35,795 nt of DNA, from IMG/VR virus record IMGVR_UViG_3300045988_018861; one strand, 5' to 3'. The stretch's first letter is position 1. The number at the start of each line of letters is the position of its first letter. Shown here piece by piece: positions 1-35,795 of the stretch. The position numbers and the translations under genes were made by a program. The notes under the pieces were generated by a model. That model worked only from the letters and a program-made list of their open reading frames with translations. It had not been told where the DNA came from and did not search any database. Source of the stretch: a virus.

Positions 1-265
1 CGCCGGAGGCAGTGGCGCAGCTACCGCCGGAGACTTTGGCGCAGCTACCGCCGGAGACAGTGGCGCAGCTACCGCCGGAGGCAGTGGCGCAGCTACCGCC
101 GGAGACTTTGGCGCAGCTACCGCCGGAAACTTTGGCGCAGCTACCGCCGGAGACAGTGGCGCAGCTACCGCCGGATTCCGTGGCGCAGCTACCGCCGGAT
201 TCCGTGGCGCAGCTACCGCCGGAGGCAGTGGCGCAGCTACCGCCGGAGACTTTGGCGCAGCTACA
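1..265 (+). repeat. 24-nt tandem repeat array (about 11 units) inside a coding region; encodes A-T-A-G-x-x-G-A octapeptides
   Basis: Unit is ggcgcagctaccgccgga plus a 6-nt variable patch (gacttt, gacagt, ggcagt, aacttt, ttccgt). It continues the array at 35629-35795. Confidence 0.95.
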
Positions 266-493
266 TCGCGCGGGAGCGCGTCGGTTGGCACAAATGGCAT
301 TGCGTGCGCGCGCGGTTGTGCGCCTATGGCAAGAGGCGGCATCGGCGCCGTGCTGGTGCTCGTCGAAGAGCCATCTAGCAGCTATAACATTGCGCACTGG
401 AAAGCCGTCGAAGTCGATGGCAAAACGGTGAAGGCGGATACGTGGTATCGGCTGAAAAATGGCGAGCTTATGGAAGCAGGTGACGACGAATGA
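2..493 (+). CDS. C-terminal part of the octapeptide-repeat protein (5' part lies at 35275-35795); not in the ORF track because it has no ATG in the window
   Basis: Frame 2 is open from position 2 to TGA at 491-493. It reads AGGSGAATAGDFGAATAGDSGAAT...SRGSASVGTNGIACARG...WKAVEVDGKTVKADTWYRLKNGELMEAGDDE. Confidence 0.85.
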   Translation, partial: AGGSGAATAGDFGAATAGDSGAATAGGSGAATAGDFGAATAGNFGAATAGDSGAATAGFRGAATAGFRGAATAGGSGAATAGDFGAATSRGSASVGTNGIACARGCAPMARGGIGAVLVLVEEPSSSYNIAHWKAVEVDGKTVKADTWYRLKNGELMEAGDDE

Positions 494-645
494 AGGTATT
501 CGGAGACCCGCGCGCGCGGGCAAAGGCGCGCAAATACATTGTGTGGGGCATCGAGGACGGCATCGTCTGTGCGAGCTTCCTCGGCGGCATTGCGCTGGCC
601 GGGTGGGTGTTTCACGTAATCTTCACGGCGCTGGGGGTGGCATGA
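490..645 (+). CDS. Small membrane protein (51 aa), below the ORF-track size cutoff
   Basis: MKVFGDPRARAKARKYIVWGIEDGIVCASFLGGIALAGWVFHVIFTALGVA. ATGA start/stop overlaps at both ends (490-493 and 642-645). AGGTGA lies 8 nt upstream. C-terminal hydrophobic helix. Confidence 0.55.
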   Translation: MKVFGDPRARAKARKYIVWGIEDGIVCASFLGGIALAGWVFHVIFTALGVA

Positions 646-1037
646 TGCAGCACCTCGGTGACATCACAAAACTCGACGGCGCGACCATCGATCCGGTGTG
701 GTGCGTGACGGGTGGCAGCCCATGTCAGGATCTGAGCATCGCTGGCAAGCGCGCCGGTCTCGCAGGCGCGCGAAGCGGCCTGTTTATGGAGCAAATCAGA
801 GTGATAAAGGAGATGCGGGAGCATGACAAACAGCTTGGCTGGGCAGGAGAGCTTATTCGTCCCAGATACATGGTCTGGGAAAACGTCCCCGGAGCGCTCA
901 GCAGCAACAGAGGACGAGACTTCGCGGCCGTGCTCGAAGAGACGATCCGCATCGTCGAACCGGAAGCCCCCGGTATTGAAGTGCCTACAAAAGGCTGGCC
1001 TACCTGGGGCGGGTATCGGGACGTGGACGGACGATGA
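642..1037 (+). CDS. DNA (cytosine-5) methyltransferase fragment, motifs IV and VI only; ends at an in-frame TGA
   Basis: MMQHLGDITKLDG...GGSPCQDLS (PCQ at 720-728) and MVWENVPG (ENVPG at 879-893). The start overlaps the upstream ORF's stop (ATGA). No motif I upstream. Confidence 0.8.
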   Translation: MMQHLGDITKLDGATIDPVWCVTGGSPCQDLSIAGKRAGLAGARSGLFMEQIRVIKEMREHDKQLGWAGELIRPRYMVWENVPGALSSNRGRDFAAVLEETIRIVEPEAPGIEVPTKGWPTWGGYRDVDGR

Positions 1038-2097
1038 AGTGTGGCTTGGCGAGTCCACGACGCGCAATACTGGGGAGTGCCCCAGCGTCGCCGTCGAATC
1101 GCGCTTGTCGCAGATTTTGGAGGCGACACCGCCCACGAAATACTGTTTGAGCGCGCGGGCGTGTCAGGGAATCTTGAACCGCGCGGCGAGGCGGGGGAAA
1201 GCCCTACCGGAAATGCTGAAAGCGGCGTTAATCCGGCAGTCACAAGAAGTATCACCGCAAGAGCGGATGGAAGCCCCTGCGCTGTGCGCCGCCTTTAAGC
1301 TAGGCAACAGTGAACAGGCGCGGAGCATCGGCTATCAGGAGGAGCTGTCCCCTACACTGAACGCCGAGTGCGGCGGGAATAAGCCTGCTGTGGTTACACC
1401 TGCGGCATACGGCATCTGCTCTTACGCCAGCAACAGTATGAAATCATCGAACCCGCACAGCGGCGTCTACAAAGCGGACACCAGCCGGACGCTTGACCTG
1501 AATGGCGGGAATCCGGCTTGCAATCAGGGTGGCATTGCCGTGGTGCAAAGGGCGTATCAGATGCAGGGCTTTGGCGATTACCGCGAAGCTGACGTCGCCA
1601 GCTCCTGCAAACAGCGAGACTACAAGGACAGCACAGATCTGGTTATCGGAATTGACGGAGAATGCAATGCCTATATAGAACAATATGGCACACTGCGAGC
1701 GCACGCGAGCGGCGGTGCGGAAGAAACGCTTATGCATCGCATGGTCGTGCGGCGTCTGACCCCGCTGGAATGTGAACGGCTTCAGGGATTTCCGGATGGC
1801 TGGACGGACATCGGCGACTACACCGACAGCACCGGCAAGAAGCGCAAGACCTCCGACAGCGCGCGGTACAAGGCGCTCGGCAACAGCATCGCGCTGCCGT
1901 TCTGGCGCTGGATGTTCGGGCGCATGGCGGCCTATCTGCCGGAAGGTGCGACACTCGGCAGCCTGTTTGATGGCATCGGCGGATTCCCGCTGTGCTGGGA
2001 GGATGTACACGGTGTCGGGACGGCAATCTGGGCAAGCGAGATTGAGGAGTTTCCAATCGCCGTGACGAAAAAGAGATTTGGAGGGGTAAAAACATGA
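823..2097 (+). CDS. DNA (cytosine-5) methyltransferase, target-recognition region + motifs IX, X and then motif I at the C-terminus; overlaps 642-1298 in the +1 frame
   Basis: RRLTPLECERLQGFPDGW (1750-1794), YKALGNSIALP (GNS at 1879-1887), then GSLFDGIGGFP...WASEIEEFPIAVTKKRF (FDGIGG at 1966-1983). AAGGAG at 807-812 precedes ATG 823. The frame is open from 805 to 2097. Confidence 0.85.
   Translation: MTNSLAGQESLFVPDTWSGKTSPERSAATEDETSRPCSKRRSASSNRKPPVLKCLQKAGLPGAGIGTWTDDEVWLGESTTRNTGECPSVAVESRLSQILEATPPTKYCLSARACQGILNRAARRGKALPEMLKAALIRQSQEVSPQERMEAPALCAAFKLGNSEQARSIGYQEELSPTLNAECGGNKPAVVTPAAYGICSYASNSMKSSNPHSGVYKADTSRTLDLNGGNPACNQGGIAVVQRAYQMQGFGDYREADVASSCKQRDYKDSTDLVIGIDGECNAYIEQYGTLRAHASGGAEETLMHRMVVRRLTPLECERLQGFPDGWTDIGDYTDSTGKKRKTSDSARYKALGNSIALPFWRWMFGRMAAYLPEGATLGSLFDGIGGFPLCWEDVHGVGTAIWASEIEEFPIAVTKKRFGGVKT
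1038..1298 (+). CDS. Same-frame continuation of the methyltransferase after the TGA (motif VIII); possibly pseudogenised or read through
   Basis: SVAWRVHDAQYWGVPQRRRRIALVADFGGDTAHEILFE (QRRRR at 1083-1097). Same frame as 642-1037. Stops at TAA 1296-1298. Confidence 0.6.
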   Translation, partial: SVAWRVHDAQYWGVPQRRRRIALVADFGGDTAHEILFERAGVSGNLEPRGEAGESPTGNAESGVNPAVTRSITARADGSPCAVRRL

Positions 2098-2387
2098 AAA
2101 CCAGACATGATAACGGCGCACCCGCTGTGGAAAGCGTACGCGAGCTGCTGAACCGGCCGCGCTCGAGCGCAGATTTCTCGCCAGCAGCACGCTACGCTGT
2201 TAACAAGCTGTGCGACTATGCTGAACAGGAGCACGAGCAGCGCGAGAAAGCGGAAACCATGCTCTGTAACGAGCGGCGCAAGGCACTTGCGTTCTCTGCC
2301 GAAATGGCGCGGCAGGAACGCACGATCGACGACTTGCGGCAGCAGTTGTCGTTTATGCAGCAGGCGCGGTGGGACGCGGGGGTGTGA
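2094..2387 (+). CDS. Hypothetical protein (coiled-coil-like)
   Basis: ATG with GGAGGGG RBS; start overlaps the upstream stop; 97 aa. Confidence 0.6.
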   Translation: MKTRHDNGAPAVESVRELLNRPRSSADFSPAARYAVNKLCDYAEQEHEQREKAETMLCNERRKALAFSAEMARQERTIDDLRQQLSFMQQARWDAGV

Positions 2388-4578: not shown

Positions 4579-4722
4579 ATGCGAAACCCATGTAAGGACT
4601 GCATCTATTATCACAAGGAGAACAGAACTTGCCAGTCGAAGAAATGCGCTACTGGTGGTAGCGGAAAAGTATCTTGGATTGATAAATTGTTCTGTGCTCC
4701 ACGCAAAAAGGATGGACGGTGA
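4579..4722 (+). CDS. Small Cys-rich hypothetical protein
   Basis: MRNPCKDCIYYHKENRTCQSKKC...; GGAGGTG RBS lies before ATG 4579, so the longer 4516 start was rejected. Confidence 0.5.
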   Translation: MRNPCKDCIYYHKENRTCQSKKCATGGSGKVSWIDKLFCAPRKKDGR

Positions 4723-4727
4723 CAGCG

Positions 4728-4826
4728 ATGCCAAAGCGGATTAACCCACGCCGGAGGCCGGCGACACAGGCAGACGTGCAGCGCGCAAAGGACACGGCAG
4801 GCGTCCGGCGATGCCGGAACATCTAA
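4728..4826 (+). CDS. Possible 32-aa basic peptide (below the track cutoff)
   Basis: MPKRINPRRRPATQADVQRAKDTAGVRRCRNI; weak RBS. Confidence 0.25.
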   Translation: MPKRINPRRRPATQADVQRAKDTAGVRRCRNI

Positions 4827-4844
4827 AAACAGGAGGAAACAACA

Positions 4845-5078
4845 ATGGAAGCAAACACAATGTGGGAAGACGCGCGCAACGACGCGCACAGCGCCGCGCA
4901 CAACAGGGCATGCCTCGACATCCTGACGAATGCGATCTTCAACTCCGCCCGGCTGAACTATAGCGGTGAAAAACTCGCCTTCGACGACGACGAGCTTTGT
5001 ACCGTGCTTCGGGCAATGTACCCGAATGATTACGACAGCGTGCTCGTAAATCTGCAAGCGATCAAGGCGGGCGAATGA
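4845..5078 (+). CDS. Hypothetical protein
   Basis: AGGAGGAAACAACA-ATG; 77 aa. Confidence 0.65.
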   Translation: MEANTMWEDARNDAHSAAHNRACLDILTNAIFNSARLNYSGEKLAFDDDELCTVLRAMYPNDYDSVLVNLQAIKAGE

Positions 5079-5091
5079 AAGGAGAAACACA

Positions 5092-5492: not shown

Positions 5493-6098
5493 ATGAAATT
5501 GAACGTTGTGTATAAGAAACTCCGCGAAATTACACCGTATGATAAAAATGCGAAAAAGCATGATAAGACCCAGATTGCAAATGTTGCGGAAAGTATCAAG
5601 CAATACGGCTTTGTGCAGCCGATTGTGATTGACCGCGACGGTGTGATTGTTATCGGCCACTGTCGTGCTCTGGCGGCAAAGAAACTTGGCATGAAAGAAG
5701 TGCCGTGTGTCTGTGTGGATGATCTGACGCCGGAGCAGGTGAACGCTCTGCGGCTGGTAGATAATAAGAGCAACGAGAGCGATTGGGACTTTGATCTGCT
5801 GAAAGATGAACTGCCGGAGTTGGATTTGAGCGATTTTGATTTTGATTTTGATTTTGGCTTGCAAGCCGATGGAGAAGATTATTCACAAGATGAATTTGGC
5901 GATGAATTTTCGTTGCCAGATGGCGATAAACCAGAAATCTGCCAAATGACATTTACCCTACACCAACAGCAAAAGGAATTGATTGAATACGCAATTAGCA
6001 TTGTGAAAGATAATGTATCTGAAACATTTGGTAATGCCAACGAAAATGGGAACGCATTGTATGAGGTGATACGGCAATGGGCAGCGCAAAGGAATTGA
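5493..6098 (+). CDS. ParB N-terminal (ParB/Srx-like nuclease) domain protein
   Basis: ...ITPYDKNAKKHDKTQIANVAESIKQYGFVQPIVIDRDGVIVIGHCRALAAKKLGMKEVPCV...LTPEQVNALRLVDNK... Acidic DFDFDFDF linker. Confidence 0.8.
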   Translation: MKLNVVYKKLREITPYDKNAKKHDKTQIANVAESIKQYGFVQPIVIDRDGVIVIGHCRALAAKKLGMKEVPCVCVDDLTPEQVNALRLVDNKSNESDWDFDLLKDELPELDLSDFDFDFDFGLQADGEDYSQDEFGDEFSLPDGDKPEICQMTFTLHQQQKELIEYAISIVKDNVSETFGNANENGNALYEVIRQWAAQRN

Positions 6099-6829
6099 TT
6101 GTAAAAGTTATTCCGAGCAAGGTTGCCGTTCCGTTTGTGAAAACGCACCATTATAGTGGCAAGGTTGTGAATAACAGCAATTTGCATTTCGGCGTGTTTT
6201 ACGAAGGCAGACTTCACGGCGTCATGTCCTTTGGCCCGTCTTTGGATAAGTCAAAAATACAGGGGCTTGTTGAGGGAACCGGGTGGAACGAATTCATCGA
6301 ATTGAACCGTATGGCGTTTGATGATGTGCTGCCGCGTAATAGTGAGAGCCGGGCGATTGCGATTGCGATGAAGCTAATCAGAAAAAACGCGCCTCAAATC
6401 AAATGGGTCATTTCGTTTGCTGATGGTTGCCAATGCGGTGACGGAACAATCTACCGCGCAAGTGGGTTTATCTTGACGGGTTATTCAAGCGGCTCAATGT
6501 GGAAGCTTCCTGATTACCTCGTGAAAATAAACGGCGGGGACGTTGCCCACAGAATGAAAGTGCAAAACAAACGCAGTGCTTTGTCAAGGTATATTCTCCA
6601 AGAAACGCATGGTAAAAACTTAACGATGGAAAAGTGCGTTGAGAAGTTTGGCGGGGAAATTCTTGATGGGAAGATGTTTCGGTATATCTATTTTATCGAT
6701 TCAACATATAGGGATCGGCTTCTCGTTCCGATCATTCCATTTTCCAAAATCGATGAAATGGGCGCTGGAATGTATAAGGGGAAAAAGGTAACGCAAGCTG
6801 AAAGGCATAATAAAAAGCAACCCGAATAA
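6077..6829 (+). CDS. Mom-family-like (GNAT-fold) putative DNA adenine modification protein
   Basis: PFVKTHHYSGK...HFGVFYEG...ELNRMAF...NSESRAIA...ISFADGCQCGDGTIYRASGFILTG...FRYIYF. This pattern matches what I recall of Mom-like acyltransferase-fold proteins. Overlaps the ParB-like gene by 22 nt. Confidence 0.55.
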   Translation: MGSAKELIVKVIPSKVAVPFVKTHHYSGKVVNNSNLHFGVFYEGRLHGVMSFGPSLDKSKIQGLVEGTGWNEFIELNRMAFDDVLPRNSESRAIAIAMKLIRKNAPQIKWVISFADGCQCGDGTIYRASGFILTGYSSGSMWKLPDYLVKINGGDVAHRMKVQNKRSALSRYILQETHGKNLTMEKCVEKFGGEILDGKMFRYIYFIDSTYRDRLLVPIIPFSKIDEMGAGMYKGKKVTQAERHNKKQPE

Positions 6830-22710: not shown

Positions 22711-23565
22711 ATGGAATTCATTGCTTGCAACTCGGACAATTACCGTTCTGGGCGCACACGGCCGGTGCAGTACATTGTGATGCACTACACGGCAAACAAC
22801 GGCGACACCGCGCGTAACAACTGCGATTACTATCACCGCGCGAGCGGCCTGCAGGCGAGCGCGCACTATTTTGTGGACGAGTATGGCGCGATGCAGTCCG
22901 TGCGAGAGGGCGACACGGCGTGGCACTGCGGCGCTCGGGCGTACTGGCATCCAGAGTGTCGCAACGCCAATAGCATCGGCATTGAGATGTGCAGCCGCAA
23001 GCGCGCCGATGGCAGCTACTACATCAAGCCGGAGACCGTGGCAAACGCCGCGGCGCTGGCACGGGAGATCATGCAGCGCTATGGCATCGACACCGACCAC
23101 GTGCTGCGGCACTACGACGTGACGGGCAAGCGCTGCCCCATGCCGTGGGTGGATGATCCGGCGCAGTGGACGGCATTTAAGGAGATGCTGACGCCGAAAA
23201 GCACTACTACAGACGAGGAGGATGATGACATGGTACGATACAGCAAAATTGAGGATGTTCCAGATTGGGCGCAGGACACGGTGCGCGAGATGATGGATGC
23301 GGGCGCTCTAAAGGGTGACGAGCACGGATGCATTGACCTTTCGCGGGACATGGTGCGCGGCATGGTGATCGGCAAGCGGTACGCGGACTCGCGCAGCCCT
23401 AGATATGCAACGATTGACGACGTGCCAGGATGGGCACGCGAGGAGACGCAGAAGCTGGTGGAGCGCGGCGCTCTGAAAGGCAATGCGCACGGCAAGATGG
23501 GCGTATCGATGGATATGCTGCGCACGATGATCGTGTGCCAGCGGATGATCGACGAAAACAAGTGA
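22711..23565 (+). CDS. Endolysin: N-acetylmuramoyl-L-alanine amidase (amidase_2/PGRP type) with two SLH-like wall-binding repeats
   Basis: YIVMHYTANNGD...HYFVDE...WHCG...NSIGIEMC...VLRHYDVTGKRCP. Repeats: IEDVPDWAQDTVREMMDAGALKG and IDDVPGWAREETQKLVERGALKG. Confidence 0.9.
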   Translation: MEFIACNSDNYRSGRTRPVQYIVMHYTANNGDTARNNCDYYHRASGLQASAHYFVDEYGAMQSVREGDTAWHCGARAYWHPECRNANSIGIEMCSRKRADGSYYIKPETVANAAALAREIMQRYGIDTDHVLRHYDVTGKRCPMPWVDDPAQWTAFKEMLTPKSTTTDEEDDDMVRYSKIEDVPDWAQDTVREMMDAGALKGDEHGCIDLSRDMVRGMVIGKRYADSRSPRYATIDDVPGWAREETQKLVERGALKGNAHGKMGVSMDMLRTMIVCQRMIDENK

Positions 23566-23579
23566 TGGAGGGACTACAT

Positions 23580-23834
23580 ATGAACATCAACTGGAAACTT
23601 AGATTACAGAACAAAGCGACGTTGACCGCGCTCGTCATGGCGCTGGTGGCGCTGGTGTATCAGGTGCTCGGTGTGTGCGGTGTCGTGCCGCGTGTGTCAC
23701 AGGATCAGGTGACGACGATCATCAGCATGGTTATCAACATTTTGTGTCTGCTCGGCATCGTGGTTGACCCGACGACGGCCGGAGTTGGCGACAGCGTGCG
23801 GGCTATGAGCTATGACAAGCCTAAAAAATACTAA
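23580..23834 (+). CDS. Holin (phi LC3 / LL-H-like family)
   Basis: MNINWKLRLQNKATLTALVMALVALV...LGIVVDPTTAGVGDS...; GGAGGG RBS. Confidence 0.8.
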   Translation: MNINWKLRLQNKATLTALVMALVALVYQVLGVCGVVPRVSQDQVTTIISMVINILCLLGIVVDPTTAGVGDSVRAMSYDKPKKY

Positions 23835-24645: not shown

Positions 24646-24948
24646 ATGGTGTACTACGTTTCGCACTGCTATCAGGGAAACCAGGAAAATGTTCGCAATG
24701 CTGCAAAAATCACACATGACTTGCAGATGGCAGATCAAAATAACTGCTATATTTGCCCATTACTTGCATTTTCACACATGGAATATGGAGAAATTGGATA
24801 TGAACAGGAAATGGAGTTGTGCCTTGATTTGCTATCGGTGTGTGATGCCATAATCGTCGCATCCAAGGTTAGCGAGGGCGTGCGACGTGAAATCGAGTTT
24901 GCAAAGATGGTCAACATGGAGGTAATTTACCTTGCCGAAACCGACTGA
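24646..24948 (+). CDS. Hypothetical protein, possibly nucleoside 2-deoxyribosyltransferase-like fold (DUF4406/DUF7768-like)
   Basis: YYVSHCYQGNQENVRNAAKITHDLQ...CDAIIVASKVSEGVRREIEFAKMVNMEVIYL. Confidence 0.35.
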   Translation: MVYYVSHCYQGNQENVRNAAKITHDLQMADQNNCYICPLLAFSHMEYGEIGYEQEMELCLDLLSVCDAIIVASKVSEGVRREIEFAKMVNMEVIYLAETD

Positions 24949-25150
24949 CGAATTTGATTTTAGCCGACAGCGATGGGAGCATTTGATTGATAGCTATATT
25001 TTCAACGAGCGAGACCGAGAAATTTTGAAGCGCAGGTTGCTCGACTGCCGCACGTTTGAACAACTTGCATCGGAATTCGATTTGAGCACACAACATACTA
25101 AAACGATTGTGTACAAGGCGCAAAACAAGCTATACAGACACATTAAATAA
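24932..25150 (+). CDS. Sigma-70 region-4-like HTH protein (possible late-gene regulator)
   Basis: ...RDREILKRRLLDCRTFEQLASEFDLSTQHTKTIVYKAQNKL; TTG start with GGAGGT 8 nt upstream. Confidence 0.5.
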   Translation: MPKPTDEFDFSRQRWEHLIDSYIFNERDREILKRRLLDCRTFEQLASEFDLSTQHTKTIVYKAQNKLYRHIK

Positions 25151-25151
25151 T

Positions 25152-25183
25152 ATAGCCGCCCATTACAGGCGGCTATTTTTTAT
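25152..25183. terminator. Bidirectional hairpin terminator between convergent genes
   Basis: ATAGCCGCC-cattaca-GGCGGCTAT followed by a T6 run. Confidence 0.7.
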
Positions 25184-25488
25184 TCGATTGCGTCCAGCTT
25201 TTTCATGACGGCTGTGTATAGCTTCCCGTTGATGATTTTAATGGTATCCATCAATTCATCCATAACGGCAAAAATCTCAACGCTGTTCTTCCCGGAAACC
25301 GCAGACAAGAAATCGCTATCACCTGACACGTCAAGCGGTTCTGGCTGGGAAACTGCCGTTTTTGAAGAAAACATCTTATAAAGCATCGCACAGTACAACG
25401 GCGCAATTTTGGTTAATGCCGCAAAAGATGTATCGTAATTAGCTTCAGATTCGAGCAGCGTCTTTTCGATTTCGGAATAGTCGATCAT
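25180..25488 (-). CDS. Hypothetical protein
   Basis: 102-aa ORF, last gene of the minus-strand island. Confidence 0.55.
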   Translation of the reverse strand: MIDYSEIEKTLLESEANYDTSFAALTKIAPLYCAMLYKMFSSKTAVSQPEPLDVSGDSDFLSAVSGKNSVEIFAVMDELMDTIKIINGKLYTAVMKKLDAIE

Positions 25489-25503
25489 ATGTATATACCA
25501 TCT

Positions 25504-25815
25504 TTACATTTCGCGATACATAGCCTGCATATTTTTGACTTCCTGCGCCTTATCTACCTGCTTGTCGTGCAAATAGTCATATACGGCCTGCATCTCCGCT
25601 GGCGGCTCTCCGTGCTTTGCACGGTACTCCTTGATTACATCTGCAATTTCCGCGTGAAGCAGCGCCATATGGCGCAACTCGTCGGTAGAAAGGTCGTAAA
25701 ATGTCTTGGCAAGTTCAGGGCGTTCATCCTTGTACTTGACAGCGCACTTTGCGTACTTCCCCGCATCGTCAATTTCCTCGTCGATCATTGTTGACAGTTT
25801 TTCGATGAGTTTCAT
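25504..25815 (-). CDS. Hypothetical four-helix (ferritin-like?) protein
   Basis: MKLIEKLSTMIDEEIDDAGKYAKCAVKYKDERPELAKTFYDLSTDELRHMALLH...; GAGG RBS before ATG 25815. The longer 26094 start overlaps the upstream gene. Confidence 0.6.
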   Translation of the reverse strand: MKLIEKLSTMIDEEIDDAGKYAKCAVKYKDERPELAKTFYDLSTDELRHMALLHAEIADVIKEYRAKHGEPPAEMQAVYDYLHDKQVDKAQEVKNMQAMYREM

Positions 25816-25823
25816 GACACGCC

Positions 25824-26225
25824 TCACAGTTTGACGACCGTGACGGCAAGGTTGTCTACAACCGAAGCTGCGCCGCCGAGGACGAACGACAGGATGCTGC
25901 TTTCGCATCCGCAAGCGTTGCGAACGATGGCAGTCAGGCCAATGTTGACGGCTGTCGCGGCAGCGGCAACAGTTTCCGAGCCGGTTGCGCCGATGATTGC
26001 AACGCCGTCTTTCTGCGCGGTGACAGACACAGTTCCGGCCGCTGCCGGTGTGACCGTCGCGGAGACGTTTACGAGATAGTATCCATTGCCGCAAAGCGTG
26101 ATGGCGTTACCGTCCTGCTTGATGTTGCATCCATAACGCCGGGCGGTGCTACCAACCGGGATGATTCCACCGACAGCAACTGCCGGTGCGCTGGTGTTAG
26201 TCGTGTAGATAGCAGATTTACTCAT
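25824..26225 (-). CDS. Small beta-rich protein resembling BclA-C-terminal/C1q-TNF-like jelly-roll domains
   Basis: ...ITLCGNGYYLVNVSATVTP...VSVTAQKDGVAIIGA...LTAIVRNACGCE...LAVTVVKL. Confidence 0.45.
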   Translation of the reverse strand: MSKSAIYTTNTSAPAVAVGGIIPVGSTARRYGCNIKQDGNAITLCGNGYYLVNVSATVTPAAAGTVSVTAQKDGVAIIGATGSETVAAAATAVNIGLTAIVRNACGCESSILSFVLGGAASVVDNLAVTVVKL

Positions 26226-26246
26226 ATAATCAATCCTTTCATAATA

Positions 26247-26274
26247 TGAAAAATGGGGCAGCTATTGCCGCCCC
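26247..26274 (-). terminator. Intra-island hairpin followed by a T-run on the minus strand
   Basis: 8-bp GC stem (7 of 8 paired), 4-nt loop, then ATTTTTC on the minus strand. Confidence 0.45.
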
Positions 26275-26308
26275 AATAACCTCGCCTAAAAGGGCGTTAC
26301 CATGTGGT

Positions 26309-26905
26309 TTAGATGTTATTCCCACAGCCGCAGCCGCAACCGCAGAACGGGGAATTACCAGCGCTGTAAGAGTAGCTCATCGGATAACGGACAACGCCGC
26401 AGAAGCGGGAGTCCATCTCAAGGCTGGAAACCTTGTCACGAAGAGCCTGAATCTCGTTCGTCTGAATCAGCGCGCGAGTAGCTTCGCCCTCGGCATGAAT
26501 CGCCGTAGTGATGTCGCAAGCGTTCTGGTTCATCTGAGCAGACAGGTTCGCCGTGGCGAGCCGGTTGTCGCAGCAGCACTGCGCGAGCTGTGCGGACAGA
26601 TTGCGCCCCTCCGAGGTGATTGAGTTATTAAGCGCGAACGTACTGTCGCAGATACCGTTACCGATATTGTTCAGACGATCATTGAGCTGGCCGAACTGCT
26701 GACCAAACAAGATTTCCTGCTGGGAAGCAGCGGTTGCGTACTGACCAAATTCGCCCTGACGGTTGCCCCAGAAGCCGCCGCCGCCCATAAAGACGAACAG
26801 GAACAGGATGATGATCCACCAAGCGCCTCCGTTGTTCCACCCTTCGCCGCCACCATCAACGGCAGCACGAAGGTCAGAAAGACTGTAATTATCCAGAATA
26901 ATCAT
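26309..26905 (-). CDS. Membrane-anchored coiled-coil protein with Cys clusters and a C-terminal (CG)n tail
   Basis: TM helix AWWIIILFLFVFMGGGGFW; Cys clusters ICDS, QCCCDNR, NACD; C-terminus FCGCGCGCGNNI. Confidence 0.6.
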   Translation of the reverse strand: MIILDNYSLSDLRAAVDGGGEGWNNGGAWWIIILFLFVFMGGGGFWGNRQGEFGQYATAASQQEILFGQQFGQLNDRLNNIGNGICDSTFALNNSITSEGRNLSAQLAQCCCDNRLATANLSAQMNQNACDITTAIHAEGEATRALIQTNEIQALRDKVSSLEMDSRFCGVVRYPMSYSYSAGNSPFCGCGCGCGNNI

Positions 26906-26981
26906 TCCTTTCGATTTATTTAATAATCGGTGTGCACCCCTGATTATTTTTCAAAAAACTTTATTTTTTTATAAGAAAGTG

Positions 26982-27010
26982 TTTACATTTGCGCATATAT
27001 GTGCTATTAT
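26982..27010 (+). promoter_or_regulatory. Sigma-70-type promoter
   Basis: TTTACA, 17-nt spacer, TATTAT, in an AT-rich divergent region. Confidence 0.4.
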
Positions 27011-27063
27011 ATAATCACAGCAAGGGAAACAACAAAAAAACATTAAAAAGGGAGAAATTAAAA

Positions 27064-27264
27064 ATGAGTAAAAAGTTTTATGCAGTCCAGCACGGCAACG
27101 ATTTCGCAAGCGACAACGGCAGCACCGTTAAGCGCGAAGCCATGAAGATGGCACGAGAGCTTGGCAAGGAATTTCCGGAAGAGGAAATCCGCATTTGTGT
27201 CTGCCGCGAGGATGATGATTTTTGCGAGGAAGAAATCATTGTGAGAGAGGGAAACAGATTCTAA
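27064..27264 (+). CDS. Hypothetical small acidic protein
   Basis: AAGGGAGAAATTAAAA-ATG; the track's longer 26989 start lacks an RBS. Confidence 0.55.
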   Translation: MSKKFYAVQHGNDFASDNGSTVKREAMKMARELGKEFPEEEIRICVCREDDDFCEEEIIVREGNRF

Positions 27265-27279
27265 AACAGACTTTACAGA

Positions 27280-27306
27280 GGGCGGCGAGACAGCCGCCCT
27301 TTTTTA
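27280..27306. terminator. Bidirectional hairpin terminator
   Basis: GGGCGGC-gagaca-GCCGCCC followed by a T6 run. Confidence 0.7.
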
Positions 27307-27522
27307 TTTGAGAAGTTGCATAAATGATTGCGCTTGCTGTTTCAGGCTTTCAAACTGCGCTTGCGACATTTGACCGGATGTGAGCATTTTCTCGATCTGC
27401 TGTTGGGCTTTTTGCGGCGTCATGGACTTTGCAAACTGCCGGAATTGCGCGATCATCTGCATTGGGTTACTTGCCGGTTGCGTCTGCTGCATCGGGTTCG
27501 CCCCGAAGATGCTGCTTGCCAT
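27304..27522 (-). CDS. Gln-rich hypothetical protein
   Basis: MASSIFGANPMQQTQPASNPMQMIAQFRQF...QAQFESLKQQAQSFMQLLK. Confidence 0.5.
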   Translation of the reverse strand: MASSIFGANPMQQTQPASNPMQMIAQFRQFAKSMTPQKAQQQIEKMLTSGQMSQAQFESLKQQAQSFMQLLK

Positions 27523-27865
27523 TTAGCACCATTCCTTTCAATTCGTCAAATTCTTTGCGCGTTACATAGTCCTCGGCAGGAGCGACTGACTGCATATCAT
27601 CGCACGGGGAAAACTTGAACCGCCTGATGGACGCAAAGCCCGCACCGTCAGTGCTCTTGATGTAAAAATAATCCTCGTTCGCGTCAAACAGTGCGACAGA
27701 AGCATTCGCGCCCATCTGATAGGCTTGCGCGCCTGGAAGGCCATTCACGCGGATGATCTGGCTCGGCTGGGTGCTCACCTGCCCCTGCGCTGACATCGCG
27801 TTGAGCCTATCCATATACGGATTGTTATATTGCATCGGATTTATATACGGATTGTAATATGCCAT
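27467..27865 (-). CDS. Hypothetical protein with a Tyr/Asn/Pro-rich N-terminus
   Basis: MAYYNPYINPMQYNNPYMDRLN...VALFDANEDYFYIKSTDGAGFASIRRFKF; GAGGTG RBS before ATG 27865. Confidence 0.55.
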   Translation of the reverse strand: MAYYNPYINPMQYNNPYMDRLNAMSAQGQVSTQPSQIIRVNGLPGAQAYQMGANASVALFDANEDYFYIKSTDGAGFASIRRFKFSPCDDMQSVAPAEDYVTRKEFDELKGMVLNGKQHLRGEPDAADATGK

Positions 27866-27972
27866 GATAGCACCTCGTTTCTTACTCCCATGGTATCTTA
27901 GATGGGCGGGAAATGAAAGCAAGTAAAGGTCCGAATTTCGTCTGAATTTTGTATATTTTTTTGAGAAATGTA

Positions 27973-28001
27973 TTGACAATTTAACAAAAATGGTTTATAC
28001 T
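27973..28001 (+). promoter_or_regulatory. Sigma-70-type promoter for the replication-module operon
   Basis: TTGACA, 17-nt spacer, TATACT. Confidence 0.55.
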
Positions 28002-28026
28002 ATAATCACGAAAAGGAGATGATATC

Positions 28027-28260
28027 TTGCCAAGAAAAGCGAAAGACAACGCATCCGGCGTAAAGGATCTTGCACTATATGTGCTTCGTGCAGCAGCTTT
28101 TGACATCCAAAGCGGCGGAAGGGACGAAGAAAGGTGCATCAAAGAAATCAGGGCCGGAGGCATCGACCTGTATCTTGGGTTGCTTGAAACGGAAATGACT
28201 GCAGAAGAGTTCATTTCGTTTTCAAAAAAAGGAGGTAAAAAGAATGTACAAATGTCTTAA
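28027..28260 (+). CDS. Hypothetical protein
   Basis: TTG start with AAAGGAG RBS. Confidence 0.45.
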   Translation: MPRKAKDNASGVKDLALYVLRAAAFDIQSGGRDEERCIKEIRAGGIDLYLGLLETEMTAEEFISFSKKGGKKNVQMS

Positions 28261-28720
28261 CTGCGGCCACGTTTTCGATGATGGCGAGCAGGCAAGATGG
28301 AAAGAGGACGACGGATGGCACGACGGATGCCCTGTGTGCAAAGAAGCATACGGAGAGACGATGCATTGCGCTAGATGCGGCAGAGAGTTTCTAGATGATG
28401 AATTGTTCGGCGGTTACTGCTTCGACTGTCTGGCGGATATGCTTACGCCGCAGACAGCACTTGCGTATATGCTTGACGAGAAGCTGTTTGCGCGGTATAT
28501 GTTCGACCAGTGCTGGAAATCGTCCGTTCCGGAGAGAATCGGAACGCCGCTGGAGCTGGTGATGCTGAAAGAATACTATGACTTCGTTCTTCGGTATGAA
28601 CAAGGCGATGGCGGCGCGTATTACCAGATGAAACTTCTGGAAGATTTTATCTTCAACATTAACGACATCTGTGAAAAAGAGAGATTCGGCGAATGGTGCG
28701 CCGAGAAAAAGAAAGGGTGA
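28244..28720 (+). CDS. Zinc-ribbon hypothetical protein
   Basis: MYKCLNCGH...CPVCKE...CARCG...CFDC. Confidence 0.6.
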   Translation: MYKCLNCGHVFDDGEQARWKEDDGWHDGCPVCKEAYGETMHCARCGREFLDDELFGGYCFDCLADMLTPQTALAYMLDEKLFARYMFDQCWKSSVPERIGTPLELVMLKEYYDFVLRYEQGDGGAYYQMKLLEDFIFNINDICEKERFGEWCAEKKKG

Positions 28721-35274: not shown

Positions 35275-35795
35275 ATGAAAAACGAAATCATTTCCTACAA
35301 GGGCATGGACAGCAAAATGCAGTGCCGCGGGATGCAGTACGAAGTCGGCAAGGAATTCTCCGTCGACGGAGAGATCAAGTGCTGCAGCAACGGACTGCAC
35401 GCCTGCGAGCGTCCGCTGGATGTGCTCGGCTACTACGCGCCGGGCACCGGCAGCCGGTACTTCCGCGTCACGCAGAGCGGCGACCTCGCACGAGAGCTGG
35501 GCGGCGACAGCAAAGTCGCGTCCCGCAAGATGCGTGTGGATGCAGAGATCGGCATCCCCGGTCTTGTCAAAGCGCACATCGAGTACGTAAAAGCGCACAC
35601 AACGACGGAGCACACCGACCCGAAACGCGCTACTGCCGGAGACTTTGGCGCAGCTACCGCCGGAAACTTTGGCGCAGCTACCGCCGGATTCCGTGGCGCA
35701 GCTACCGCCGGATTCCGTGGCGCAGCTACCGCCGGATTCCGTGGCGCAGCTACCGCCGGAGGCAGTGGCGCAGCTACCGCCGGAGACTTTGGCGC
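35275..35795 (+). CDS. N-terminal part of the octapeptide-repeat protein (DUF7666-like N-domain), runs off the window end and continues at 2-493
   Basis: AAAGGAGAAACAAC-ATG at 35275. MKNEIISYKGMDSKMQCRGMQYEVGKEFSVDGEIKCCSNGLHACERPLDVLGYYAPG...TEHTDPKRATAGDFGAATAGNFGAATAGFRGAAT... No stop before the window end. Absent from the ORF track. Confidence 0.85.
   Translation, partial: MKNEIISYKGMDSKMQCRGMQYEVGKEFSVDGEIKCCSNGLHACERPLDVLGYYAPGTGSRYFRVTQSGDLARELGGDSKVASRKMRVDAEIGIPGLVKAHIEYVKAHTTTEHTDPKRATAGDFGAATAGNFGAATAGFRGAATAGFRGAATAGFRGAATAGGSGAATAGDFG
35629..35795 (+). repeat. 24-nt tandem repeat array (about 7 units), same family as 1-265
   Basis: gc(t/a)ac(t/c)gccgga plus a variable 6-mer plus ggcgca, in frame with the ORF starting at 35275. 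Confidence 0.95.

What the first reader, a model, noticed from the sequence alone, without database searches (positions are those of the whole stretch)
25180..26905. Terminator-bounded minus-strand island of four unknown genes: Cys-cluster membrane coiled-coil protein, C1q/BclA-C-like beta protein, four-helix protein and one more
This island is inserted antisense between the lysis cassette and the replication module, a classic moron position. Bidirectional hairpins lie at 25152-25183 and 27280-27306, and an internal hairpin lies at 26247-26274. The genes are:
- 26309-26905: a short Gly-rich N-terminus, one TM helix (AWWIIILFLFVFMGGGGFW), a long helical region studded with Cys clusters (QCCCDNR, NACD, FCG) and a C-terminal FCGCGCGCGNNI tail;
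- 25824-26225: resembles the trimeric jelly-roll C-terminal domain of exosporium BclA / C1q-TNF proteins, but lacks any collagen stalk;
- 25504-25815: a helical bundle with ferritin-like spacing of acidic and His residues;
- 25180-25488: no recognisable feature.
The combination of Cys-rich cross-linkable, TNF-like and metal-binding-like proteins is reminiscent of spore-surface/exosporium components. It could instead be a surface-remodelling or superinfection-exclusion set expressed independently of the lytic operons.
Basis: partly seen in the sequence, partly recalled or inferred. Interest (0 to 1): 0.65.

Follow-up and report, generated by a model that had tools for sequence, protein, structure and literature searches.

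The report
Conserved membrane-protein operon of gut phages
The four unknown genes are real and belong to a larger six-gene operon, built around a cysteine-rich membrane protein, that recurs in gut phages of very different hosts; its function is unknown and it is probably not spore-related.

Summary
Two fold guesses were right. The 133-aa protein B is a stand-alone TNF/C1q jelly-roll whose best structural matches are the exosporium proteins BclA, F-BclA and ExsFA/BxpB (TM 0.75-0.81). The 103-aa protein C is ferritin/rubrerythrin-like.

The island is larger than reported. Two more minus-strand genes, F (27467-27865) and E (27304-27522), belong to it. The conserved unit is F-E-A | hairpin | B (±C, ±D), found in more than 100 Oscillospiraceae phage contigs and, in diverged form, in Clostridium perfringens phages and other gut phages. 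It sits in varied genome positions.

It is accessory: a close relative has it deleted, and others carry a different version or none. Membrane protein A alone has 888 sequence clusters. Its homologues also occur in crAss-like phages, a Bacteroides phage and viruses assigned to methanogenic archaea. That argues against the spore-surface reading.

No characterised system matches. My best guess (about 0.4) is a self-contained accessory operon that builds a membrane-anchored complex at the host cytoplasmic membrane, for exclusion or gate-keeping. Lysis control and virion association are the main rivals.

The parts
27467..27865 (-). Gene F (132 aa). It has a Tyr/Asn/Pro/Gln-rich low-complexity N-terminus, a small alpha/beta core (residues ~38-84) and a C-terminal helix.
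   Evidence: ORF. phrog_21718 at 5e-17. Co-linear with E-A-B in more than 60 loci. AF2 core pLDDT above 90, with no PDB fold match. dN/dS 0.08.
27304..27522 (-). Gene E (72 aa). A Met/Gln-rich helical mini-protein whose start overlaps the end of F by 56 nt, suggesting translational coupling.
   Evidence: ORF. phrog_22984 at 6e-11. The F/E overlap is also seen in L164 and in L171, L174, L178 and L179. dN/dS 0.10.
27277..27302 (.). GC-rich hairpin between E and the inserted gene G. It has a terminator-like T-tract on the + strand only.
27064..27264 (+). Gene G (66 aa from the ATG; 91 aa from an upstream TTG at 26989). A small acidic protein on the opposite strand, with a TG-extended promoter-like site at 26982-27010. 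It is an insertion inside the unit.
   Evidence: Detected only in about 10 closest relatives. No family match.
26309..26905 (-). Gene A (198 aa), the core protein. It has an acidic N-terminus, a Gly-flanked single transmembrane helix, a long helical region with invariant CCC and further Cys, and a Cys-Gly C-terminal tail.
   Evidence: phrog_16490 at 6e-11. No Pfam match. 888 clusters at E<=1e-3, all about 180-265 aa. dN/dS 0.11.
26283..26296 (-). Small conserved hairpin (CGCC-loop-GGCG, followed by AGG) just upstream of the internal terminator.
   Evidence: One pair shows CG to GC compensatory change in 2 of 20 sequences.
26254..26275 (-). Internal terminator-like hairpin plus T-run between A and B. 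It probably sets a lower level of B-C-D relative to F-E-A.
   Evidence: Present in 81% of 73 distinct A|B intergenic regions against 0.1% of shuffles. Also at the same place in L174 and in C. perfringens phage L171.
25824..26225 (-). Gene B (133 aa). A stand-alone TNF/C1q-like jelly-roll related to the BclA C-terminal domain.
   Evidence: Pfam BclA_C at 2.6e-4, below the cut-off. Profile against PDB BclA at 1.8e-5. AF2 pLDDT 86.9. Foldseek TM 0.75-0.81 to BclA, F-BclA, ExsFA and BxpB. dN/dS 0.12.
25504..25815 (-). Gene C (103 aa). A ferritin/rubrerythrin-like helical protein with invariant E14, E46, H49, H54, D80 and H83. It is a variable member of the unit.
   Evidence: Pfam Rubrerythrin 24.6 bits against a cut-off of 22.8. 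Profile against ferritin BfrB at 4.7e-4. Invariant columns. Detected in 39 of 159 loci.
25180..25488 (-). Gene D (102 aa). A helical protein of unknown function with a homologue at the equivalent position in C. perfringens phages. It is a variable member.
   Evidence: HMM against the L171 6038-6433 product at 6e-8. Detected in 37 of 159 loci. Absent from L182. dN/dS 0.07.
25152..25176 (.). Bidirectional terminator that closes the unit and also the convergent + strand sigma-r4-like gene (24932-25150).
   Evidence: scored on both strands.

Best explanation
Window 25152-27865 holds one self-contained accessory operon on the minus strand: F-E-A, then an attenuating hairpin, then B-C-D. In this lineage a small + strand gene, G, has been inserted between E and A.

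Shown:
- All six genes are under purifying selection.
- F and E overlap.
- The order F-E-A-hairpin-B is conserved across phages whose A proteins are only 25-50% identical.
- The unit occupies different genome positions, and in related phages it can be deleted, inverted, swapped for another version or absent.
- Only A has a transmembrane helix.

Seen by reading the translations, not tested with a predictor:
- No product has an obvious signal peptide.

Inferred:
- A inserts into the host cytoplasmic membrane. That is the only envelope layer shared by Clostridia, Bacteroides and the archaeal hosts assigned to viruses that carry A homologues.
- A oligomerises through its long helical, cysteine-rich domain.
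- F and E, made in step with A, and smaller read-through amounts of the TNF-like trimer B and helical D, assemble on A into a membrane-anchored complex.
- Ferritin-like C is an optional add-on.
- The most likely job is gate-keeping at the membrane of the infected or lysogenic cell, that is superinfection exclusion or envelope protection. In temperate relatives the operon sits in the lysin-to-integrase slot, where conversion genes usually lie.

The resemblance to exosporium proteins is structural, not functional.
For: Conserved order and co-occurrence: (144 A and 153 B hits in 159 loci; F-E-A-B is the commonest pattern). Synteny in distant versions: C. perfringens phages, L174, Dulem virus 39 and bajarodcaudo virus 2, L187.

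Internal hairpin conserved.

Purifying selection.

Accessory and swappable: the L181 deletion that fuses F to D, the L182 loss of D, the inverted version in L187, and absence from many phages that share Sak4.

Position next to the integrase and repressor in prophages of Dysosmobacter and other Oscillospiraceae.

Single TM helix in A with an acidic N-flank. A family is broad and of constant architecture.

A homologues in crAss-like phages, a Bacteroides phage and viruses assigned to archaea.

B fold. Stand-alone B-like proteins in gut sipho-, myo- and podovirus contigs.
Against: - No component matches a characterised exclusion, defence or lysis protein (PADLOC: nothing; Pfam: nothing for A, D, E, F).
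- Known exclusion systems are usually one or two small genes, not five to seven.
- Membrane topology, oligomerisation and any A-B-F-E contact are untested.
- A systematic sigma-70 promoter scan upstream of F did not exceed shuffled sequence, so independent transcription rests on terminators and gene arrangement only.
- In two lineages the unit sits between portal and capsid genes, and in crAss-like phages it sits beside holin and virion genes. Those positions fit the rivals.
- Outside Clostridia phages only A is demonstrably homologous. The neighbouring ORFs are positional analogues.
Confidence: 0.4

Rival explanations
1. Lysis-control module. A would be a single-TM holin-like or holin-regulating protein, comparable in layout to T4 holin T: a short N-terminus, one TM helix and a large C-terminal domain with essential Cys (my own knowledge of T4). 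The soluble partners would tune lysis timing.
For: The operon lies 1.3 kb from the holin and lysin in the window. It lies directly after the lysin in several Oscillospiraceae phages. In crAss-like phages the A homologue is in a block annotated holin / LysB-FtsL-like, and in cr273 it is near the endolysin. E has a very weak hit to an Rz-like spanin PHROG (E=0.098).
Against: There is no match to any holin or spanin family. The window already has a Phage_holin_1 holin. In C. perfringens phages and the B. uniformis phage the unit is among early recombination genes. In prophages it lies next to the integrase. The crAss annotations are the depositors' remote-similarity labels, not tests.
Confidence: 0.2
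2. Virion or assembly-associated proteins, for example a capsid or tail decoration made of the TNF-like trimer B, with A, F and E acting as assembly or ejection factors.
For: In L174 and bajarodcaudo virus 2 the unit lies between the portal/minor-head gene and the scaffold/major capsid genes. In crAss-like phages it lies beside virion structural and tail tubular genes. TNF-like domains are common tips of phage fibres, and PRD1 P5 is among the Foldseek hits.
Against: The unit is deleted in a close relative whose lysis genes and replication-side neighbours are otherwise co-linear with the window (L181). It is absent from many phages that share the replication module. It lies on the opposite strand from all structural genes here and in the early region of other phages. 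It occurs in contigs labelled sipho-, myo- and podovirus. B has no N-terminal attachment segment.
Confidence: 0.12
3. A chance neighbourhood of unrelated small morons with separate functions. For example C might act alone as an oxidative-stress factor for a strictly anaerobic host, and B alone as a decoy.
For: C and D are present in only about a quarter of loci. G is clearly an independent insertion. Outside Clostridia phages only A is demonstrably conserved.
Against: The order F-E-A-hairpin-B is kept across lineages with 25-50% protein identity and in at least five genome contexts. The F/E overlap is conserved. The internal hairpin is conserved at the same junction.
Confidence: 0.1
4. One reading: a phage-borne set of spore-surface or exosporium-like components that remodels the host spore.
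For: The best structural matches of B are exosporium proteins: BclA, F-BclA, ExsFA/BxpB. A and B are Cys-rich, F has a Tyr/Gln-rich low-complexity segment, and C is ferritin-like, as some coat proteins are (my own knowledge). No product has an obvious signal peptide on reading the translations, as with mother-cell-made coat proteins.
Against: A homologues occur in phages of Bacteroides, in crAss-like phages and in viruses assigned to archaea; those hosts do not sporulate (my own knowledge). There is no match to coat or exosporium families other than the sub-threshold BclA_C hit. B has no collagen stalk. The cultured type species of Oscillibacter and Dysosmobacter are described as non-spore-forming (my own knowledge). 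A paper on sporulation genes in gut phages mentions no coat or exosporium genes.
Confidence: 0.04

Closest known systems
BclA C-terminal domain / ExsFA-BxpB (TNF/C1q-like exosporium proteins of the Bacillus cereus group; Pfam PF18573)
   Same: B has the same ten-strand jelly-roll: Foldseek TM 0.75-0.81, E about 1e-8. Its profile finds the BclA structures as the top five PDB hits. Like ExsFA/BxpB, it is a stand-alone domain of about 130-170 aa.
   Different: It scores below the Pfam gathering cut-off (21.3 against 38 bits) with 12-16% identity in the structural alignments. It has no collagen repeats. It is encoded by a phage next to a membrane protein. Some versions of the operon carry a different beta-rich protein in the same slot.
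Ferritin / rubrerythrin superfamily (PF02915; ferritin BfrB 3qd8)
   Same: C matches the Rubrerythrin model above its cut-off. It aligns helix A and helix B, with the E and ExxH iron ligands, to BfrB. Those residues are invariant in 10 homologues.
   Different: It is only 103 aa, about two-thirds of a ferritin subunit. It has no rubredoxin Cys4 domain. The second metal-site half is uncertain (D80..H83 instead of ExxH). It is optional in the operon.
Morons / lysogenic-conversion cassettes of temperate phages
   Same: It is a terminator-bounded unit placed between lysis genes and the integrase or early region. It is present or absent among otherwise similar phages. It need not share orientation with its neighbours.
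   Different: It is a conserved five-to-seven-gene operon with internal attenuation rather than a single gene. It is also found inside head-gene clusters and early operons. Its own promoter is not demonstrated.
Phage single-TM membrane proteins with a large C-terminal domain (T4 holin T; Rz-type i-spanins; phi29 p16.7)
   Same: A has the same gross layout: a short N-terminus, one TM helix, and a long helical C-terminal domain with conserved Cys.
   Different: There is no sequence or profile similarity to any of them. No lipoprotein partner gene was recognised on reading the translations, and the Oscillospiraceae host belongs to Clostridia, Gram-positive bacteria that I take to lack an outer membrane. 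The resemblance is recalled from memory and was not tested structurally.

Membership tests
BclA_C / TNF-C1q-like jelly-roll (protein B) | Sequence match to Pfam PF18573 at the gathering score | tested here: not met
   21.3 bits against a cut-off of 38, E=2.6e-4, but full-length (7-133 against 2-127/128). A distant homologue in L174 carries a precomputed weak BclA_C hit.
BclA_C / TNF-C1q-like jelly-roll (protein B) | Profile-level similarity to solved BclA C-terminal domains | tested here: met
   The profile of 14 homologues hits 3twi, 2z5w, 2r6q, 3tyj and 1wck as the top five, E=1.8e-5 to 2e-4.
BclA_C / TNF-C1q-like jelly-roll (protein B) | Jelly-roll fold superposable on BclA, C1q or TNF | tested here: met
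   AF2 pLDDT 86.9, pTM 0.78. Foldseek TM 0.75-0.81 to BclA, F-BclA, ExsFA and BxpB, then BAFF, EDA and C1q.
BclA_C / TNF-C1q-like jelly-roll (protein B) | N-terminal collagen-like (GXX)n stalk, as in BclA | tested here: not met
   The protein starts four residues before the first beta-strand and has no GXX repeats.
BclA_C / TNF-C1q-like jelly-roll (protein B) | Homotrimer | not testable with these tools
   Only single-chain prediction was available.
Ferritin-like / rubrerythrin (protein C) | Match to PF02915 at the gathering score | tested here: met
   24.6 bits against a cut-off of 22.8.
Ferritin-like / rubrerythrin (protein C) | Di-iron ligands E (helix A) and ExxH (helix B) | tested here: met
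   E14, E46 and H49 are invariant and aligned to the BfrB ligand positions.
Ferritin-like / rubrerythrin (protein C) | Complete four-helix bundle with a second E/ExxH pair | tested here: inconclusive
   Only 103 aa. The second half has invariant H54, D80 and H83 and nearly invariant E56, but no canonical ExxH. No structure was predicted.
Ferritin-like / rubrerythrin (protein C) | C-terminal rubredoxin Cys4 domain of true rubrerythrins | tested here: not met
   There is a single Cys (C24) and no CxxC pairs.
Moron (independent transcription unit in a phage genome) | Own terminator | tested here: met
   25152-25176 scores on both strands. An end terminator is also present in L171.
Moron (independent transcription unit in a phage genome) | Own promoter | tested here: inconclusive
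   Good TGnTATAAT or TATAAT sites occur in a few lineages, but the family-wide scan equals shuffled sequence (7.49 against 7.38). Nothing scored upstream of F or A on the minus strand in the window.
Moron (independent transcription unit in a phage genome) | Present or absent among otherwise related phages | tested here: met
   L181 deletion, L182 loss of D, L187 inverted variant, and many Sak4-sharing phages without it.
Moron (independent transcription unit in a phage genome) | Expressed from the prophage | not testable with these tools
   This needs transcriptomics of lysogens.
Known anti-phage defence systems (PADLOC-DB) | Match of any component to a defence-system model | tested here: not met
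   No families at E<=1 for any of the nine proteins scanned.
Holins / spanins | Match to a holin or spanin family, or (for spanins) a paired lipoprotein gene | tested here: not met
   No Pfam or PHROG holin or spanin match for A. Only E=0.098 for E against an Rz-like PHROG. No lipobox ORF was recognised on reading the translations.
Spore coat / exosporium protein set | Membership of A in Cys-rich coat or exosporium families (CotY/ExsY and similar) | tested here: not met
   No Pfam or NCBIfam match for A.
Spore coat / exosporium protein set | Restriction to viruses of spore-forming hosts | tested here: not met
   A homologues in the Bacteroides uniformis phage C3_41T2LP, in crAss-like Suoliviridae and in viruses assigned to Methanomassiliicoccales.

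The most novel reading that the evidence does not exclude
The A family would be the membrane core of an undescribed machine shared by gut viruses of Bacillota, Bacteroidota and possibly methanogenic archaea. In this reading A is a cysteine-cross-linked coiled-coil assembly in the cytoplasmic membrane. It is capped or regulated by interchangeable beta-sandwich proteins, here a BclA/TNF-like trimer. Low-complexity partners (F, E, D) organise it. It would act as a new kind of exclusion gate or egress structure, comparable in concept to T4 holin/antiholin complexes or to archaeal virus pyramids but unrelated in sequence.
Probability: 0.15. Interest if true: 0.85.

Novelty: categorically new. Interest (0 to 1): 0.62.

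Why it matters
The operon is not a private oddity of one phage. Protein A has 888 sequence clusters at 50% identity and thousands of homologues, nearly all unannotated. The few public labels ('spike protein/glycoprotein', 'outer capsid protein/viral fiber') look like artefacts of coiled-coil similarity.

The operon's architecture is stable: coupled F-E, membrane protein A, an attenuating hairpin, then a beta-sandwich protein. It recurs in abundant human-gut phages of Oscillospiraceae, in Clostridium perfringens phages considered for biocontrol, and partly in crAss-like phages.

Working out its function would annotate a sizeable block of gut-virome dark matter. It might also reveal a new membrane-level mechanism of phage-host or phage-phage interaction.

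It further shows that the BclA/ExsFA exosporium fold circulates in phages as a stand-alone module. That bears on how the fold spread among Firmicutes.

Tried and rejected
- Nucleotide search of the region against deposited phages: only a 63-bp match.
- NCBIfam: nothing useful.
- PADLOC: nothing.
- Rfam on 24900-28300: only two sub-threshold chance hits.
- F: a profile against PDB and Pfam on 14 homologues gave nothing. The AF2 model has a confident small core, but the Foldseek best E was 0.2.
- The search for homologous proteins for A and B returned only close, unnamed relatives. Cluster look-up gave only 'hypothetical protein'.
- Representative search for A found no multidomain fusions that could hint at function.
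- Plasmid collection: no A homologue.
- Literature searches found no description of the cassette. The virion proteome paper for phiCP39O/26F was not held. The paper on sporulation genes in gut phages mentions no coat or exosporium genes.
- My by-eye impression of sigma-A promoters upstream of F did not survive a shuffling control, and I withdrew it as general evidence.
- I considered that the beta-rich proteins following A in C. perfringens and crAss-like phages are diverged B homologues. hhalign found no similarity, so they are called positional analogues only. The Dulem/L187-type protein is a probable B homologue (E=6e-4).
- I rejected Ena/DUF3992 and F-ENA/DUF4183 membership for the beta proteins: there is no Pfam match.
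Full report
**1. What is in the window**

The window is a complete circular siphovirus-type genome. It has a 42-nt exact terminal overlap. Its gene order is terminase, portal, major head protein, tape measure and tail genes on the + strand. These are followed by an Amidase_2 lysin (22711-23565) and a Phage_holin_1 holin (23430-23834). A replication module with Sak4, an ERCC4 nuclease, primase and helicase starts at 28671.

Between the lysis and replication modules the coding strand flips. The quoted sequence features of A are correct.

Terminator-like hairpins were found at 25152-25176 (both strands), 26275-26254 (minus strand) and 27277-27302 (+ strand only).

It includes E (27304-27522, 72 aa) and F (27467-27865, 132 aa), which overlap by 56 nt. 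A short + strand gene G (27064-27264), with its own promoter-like site, lies between E and A.

**2. The genes are real and belong together**

Pattern scans of IMG/VR with A and B returned 159 loci. tblastn over these found A in 144, B in 153, F in 101, E in 97, C in 39, D in 37 and G in 10. The commonest layout is F-E-A-B on one strand, with C and/or D appended in some lineages.

Pairwise dN/dS against relatives is 0.07-0.12 for all six genes.

In A, several features are nearly invariant although identity falls to 48%. These are the N-terminal YSLSDLRAAV segment, the Gly-flanked hydrophobic helix, the QYATAASQQEILFGQQFGQLNDRL stretch, the CCC motif and the FCGVVRYP...SPFCGC tail.

B is more conserved (median 71% identity). 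F is much less so (median 28%).

Hosts, from a scan of species-representative genomes with B, are Oscillospiraceae MAGs and isolates such as Oscillibacter and Dysosmobacter. Two hits lie in contigs of 137 and 202 kb (lineage).

In these prophages the unit F-E-A-B-C is followed on the other strand by a serine or tyrosine integrase and a repressor (LexA-like in L164 and L176). The window itself has no integrase or repressor homologue.

**3. Folds**

B matched Pfam BclA_C over its full length, but below the curated cut-off. A profile of 14 diverse homologues found the five BclA C-terminal-domain sequences in PDB as its top hits, at E=1.8e-5 to 2e-4.

An AlphaFold2 model of B (pLDDT 86.9, pTM 0.78) superposes on several exosporium proteins. 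TM scores are 0.75-0.78 for BclA, 0.72-0.79 for F-BclA and 0.76-0.81 for ExsFA/BxpB. BAFF, EDA, C1q and other TNF ligands follow.

Against predicted viral structures, the best matches are stand-alone 130-150-aa proteins from gut sipho-, myo- and podovirus contigs, at TM up to 0.94 and 23-31% identity.

C passes the Rubrerythrin gathering score. Its profile aligns helices A and B, with the E and ExxH ligands, to ferritin BfrB at E=4.7e-4. E14, E46, H49, H54, D80 and H83 are invariant.

A, D, E and F match no Pfam or NCBIfam family. They match only PHROGs of unknown function.

F has a confidently modelled small alpha/beta core but no structural neighbour.

A has one hydrophobic segment. Its N-flank is acidic and its C-flank near-neutral, so topology is not settled. 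No product has an obvious signal peptide on reading the translations; this was not tested with a predictor.

**4. The unit is much older and wider than this phage group**

The central domain of A finds Clostridium perfringens phages. In phage HMD-PC1 the neighbouring genes repeat the window's architecture:
- a 146-aa protein with an Asn/Tyr/Gln-rich N-terminus (F-like);
- an overlapping 77-aa Met/Gln-rich protein (E-like);
- a 204-aa A homologue (HMM E=9e-16);
- a 119-aa beta-rich, Cys-rich protein;
- a 65-aa protein;
- a D homologue (E=6e-8);
- a 175-aa protein whose 21 best PDB matches are all ferritins.

Similar blocks occur elsewhere:
- L174, a 52-kb contig, between the portal/minor-head gene and the scaffold/capsid genes; F, E, A and B are all recognisable by HMM.
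- Bajarodcaudo virus 2, again between portal and capsid genes.
- Dulem virus 39, downstream of an integrase gene.
- L187, at the same locus as in the window but in the opposite orientation.

The B-slot protein of Dulem virus 39 and L187 is probably homologous to B (hhalign E=6e-4). The C. perfringens-type protein is not detectably so.

A strong hairpin with a T-run separates A from the next gene in 81% of 73 distinct Oscillospiraceae-phage intergenic regions, against 0.1% of shuffles. The same hairpin is present in L174 and HMD-PC1. A smaller hairpin, CGCC-loop-GGCG followed by AGG, precedes it and shows some compensatory change.

**5. It is accessory**

Loci anchored on the neighbouring Sak4 gene give four observations:
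- L181 is otherwise co-linear with the window across the lysis genes and the replication-side neighbours. It has a deletion that fuses F residues 1-76 to D and removes E, G, A, B and C.
- L182 lacks D.
- L187 carries a divergent version in the other orientation.
- Many phages sharing Sak4 at 51-73% identity have no such genes within 7 kb upstream.

**6. Beyond Firmicutes phages**

The C. perfringens and Bacteroides A homologues, used as queries, found further members:
- crAss-like Suoliviridae, where the gene is labelled 'spike protein/glycoprotein';
- the cultured Bacteroides uniformis phage C3_41T2LP, labelled 'outer capsid protein/viral fiber';
- viruses whose records name Methanomassiliicoccales as host.

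The window-derived A HMM scores cr273 at 3e-15, cr53 at 8e-8, vir215 at 5e-8 and the Bacteroides phage at 7e-4. These proteins keep the Gly-flanked hydrophobic helix, the CCC motif and the FCQ..E...Q..I.ALR segment. Most also keep the Cys-Gly tail.

In the Bacteroides and crAss-like versions, A is followed by three further ORFs: a beta-rich ORF, a beta-plus-coiled-coil ORF and an Arg/Gly/Asp/Tyr-rich ORF. I could not show that these are homologous to B, F or D.

An exhaustive search of 1.84 billion representatives found 888 A-family clusters at E<=1e-3. All listed members are about 65-265 aa, with no added domains.

**7. Interpretation**

The spore-surface reading is not supported, for four reasons:
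- The core protein occurs in viruses of hosts that do not sporulate.
- Nothing in A matches coat families.
- B lacks a collagen stalk.
- No sporulation-specific signal was found.

The conserved order, the F/E overlap and the fixed position of the attenuating hairpin argue that the products work together in set proportions.

Only A is membrane-bound. The cytoplasmic membrane is the one envelope layer common to all the hosts involved. I therefore favour a membrane-anchored complex at that membrane.

In temperate relatives the unit sits in the lysin-to-integrase slot, and it is dispensable. Those two facts point to a protective or gate-keeping role, such as superinfection exclusion. This is an inference. 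No component resembles a characterised exclusion, defence or lysis protein.

Positions inside head-gene clusters and beside holin and virion genes keep the lysis-control and virion-associated rivals alive.

Independent transcription is supported by terminators, but not by a promoter scan that controlled for composition.

**8. Novelty**

I found no description of this cassette in the literature searches. I also found no match in defence, RNA or protein-family libraries beyond the two fold assignments.

At the level of single proteins, B and C are new, divergent members of known superfamilies. At the level of the system, I could not place it in any known kind.

Noticed in passing
window 35629-35795 and 1-264: A 24-nt tandem repeat (consensus CGCCGGAGACAGTGGCGCAGCTAC, about 16 copies in all) spans the junction of the circular genome. 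The window ends share an exact 42-nt overlap, so the genome is complete. The repeat could be an in-frame 8-aa coding repeat or a set of origin iterons.
   Followed up: partly
window 27064-27264 (+), promoter-like site 26982-27010, hairpin 27277-27302: Small acidic 66-aa gene G, with its own TG-extended promoter-like site and terminator, is inserted on the opposite strand between E and A. It occurs only in the closest relatives: a moron inside the operon.
   Followed up: partly
window 26283-26296 and 26254-26275 (minus strand): Conserved two-hairpin RNA element between A and B. The 5' arm of the small hairpin (CGCCC) could also pair with the 5' arm of the terminator (GGGCG). Two lineages with a changed small hairpin (GGCCC) also have a changed terminator arm. 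This may be a terminator/antiterminator switch.
   Followed up: partly
L181 5627-6193: In a close relative (92% Sak4 identity), a natural deletion fuses F residues 1-76 in frame to full-length D, removing E, G, A, B and C.
   Followed up: yes
L187 2486-5448: A related phage carries a divergent version of the operon at the same locus but in + orientation. Its A is 263 aa with a duplicated CCC motif, and it includes an extra Arg/Gly/Tyr/Asp-rich helical protein (4606-5079).
   Followed up: partly
L243 3500-4399, L244 3293-4207, L245 3563-4480: A-family proteins in crAss-like phages and a Bacteroides phage carry the public labels 'spike protein/glycoprotein' or 'outer capsid protein/viral fiber'. 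These look like coiled-coil artefacts rather than evidence. Several crAss ORFs here contain in-frame stops under table 11, consistent with stop-codon recoding.
   Followed up: partly
L246 4141-5022: A homologue (phrog_16490, 293 aa) in a virus whose record names Methanomassiliicoccales as host, downstream of genes annotated 'tail protein' and 'reverse transcriptase'. cr53_1 has a similar tail protein (annotated as similar to major tropism determinant) and reverse transcriptase pair upstream of its A block. I did not verify the host assignment.
   Followed up: no
window 24646-25150: A nucleoside 2-deoxyribosyltransferase-like gene (DUF7768/phrog_355) and a 72-aa sigma-70 region-4-like gene lie between the lysis genes and the operon. 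The sigma-like gene converges on the operon's end terminator.
   Followed up: no
window 1-2100 and 6077-6829: G+C is 0.61-0.63 over window 1-2000, against about 0.5 elsewhere. The genome also encodes a DNA methyltransferase (823-2097), a ParB-like protein (5493-6098) and a Mom-like DNA modification protein (6077-6829).
   Followed up: no
window, whole: No integrase or repressor homologue was found, although relatives carrying the same operon have both next to it. This phage may be a non-temperate derivative in which the inverted operon occupies the place of the lysogeny module.
   Followed up: partly
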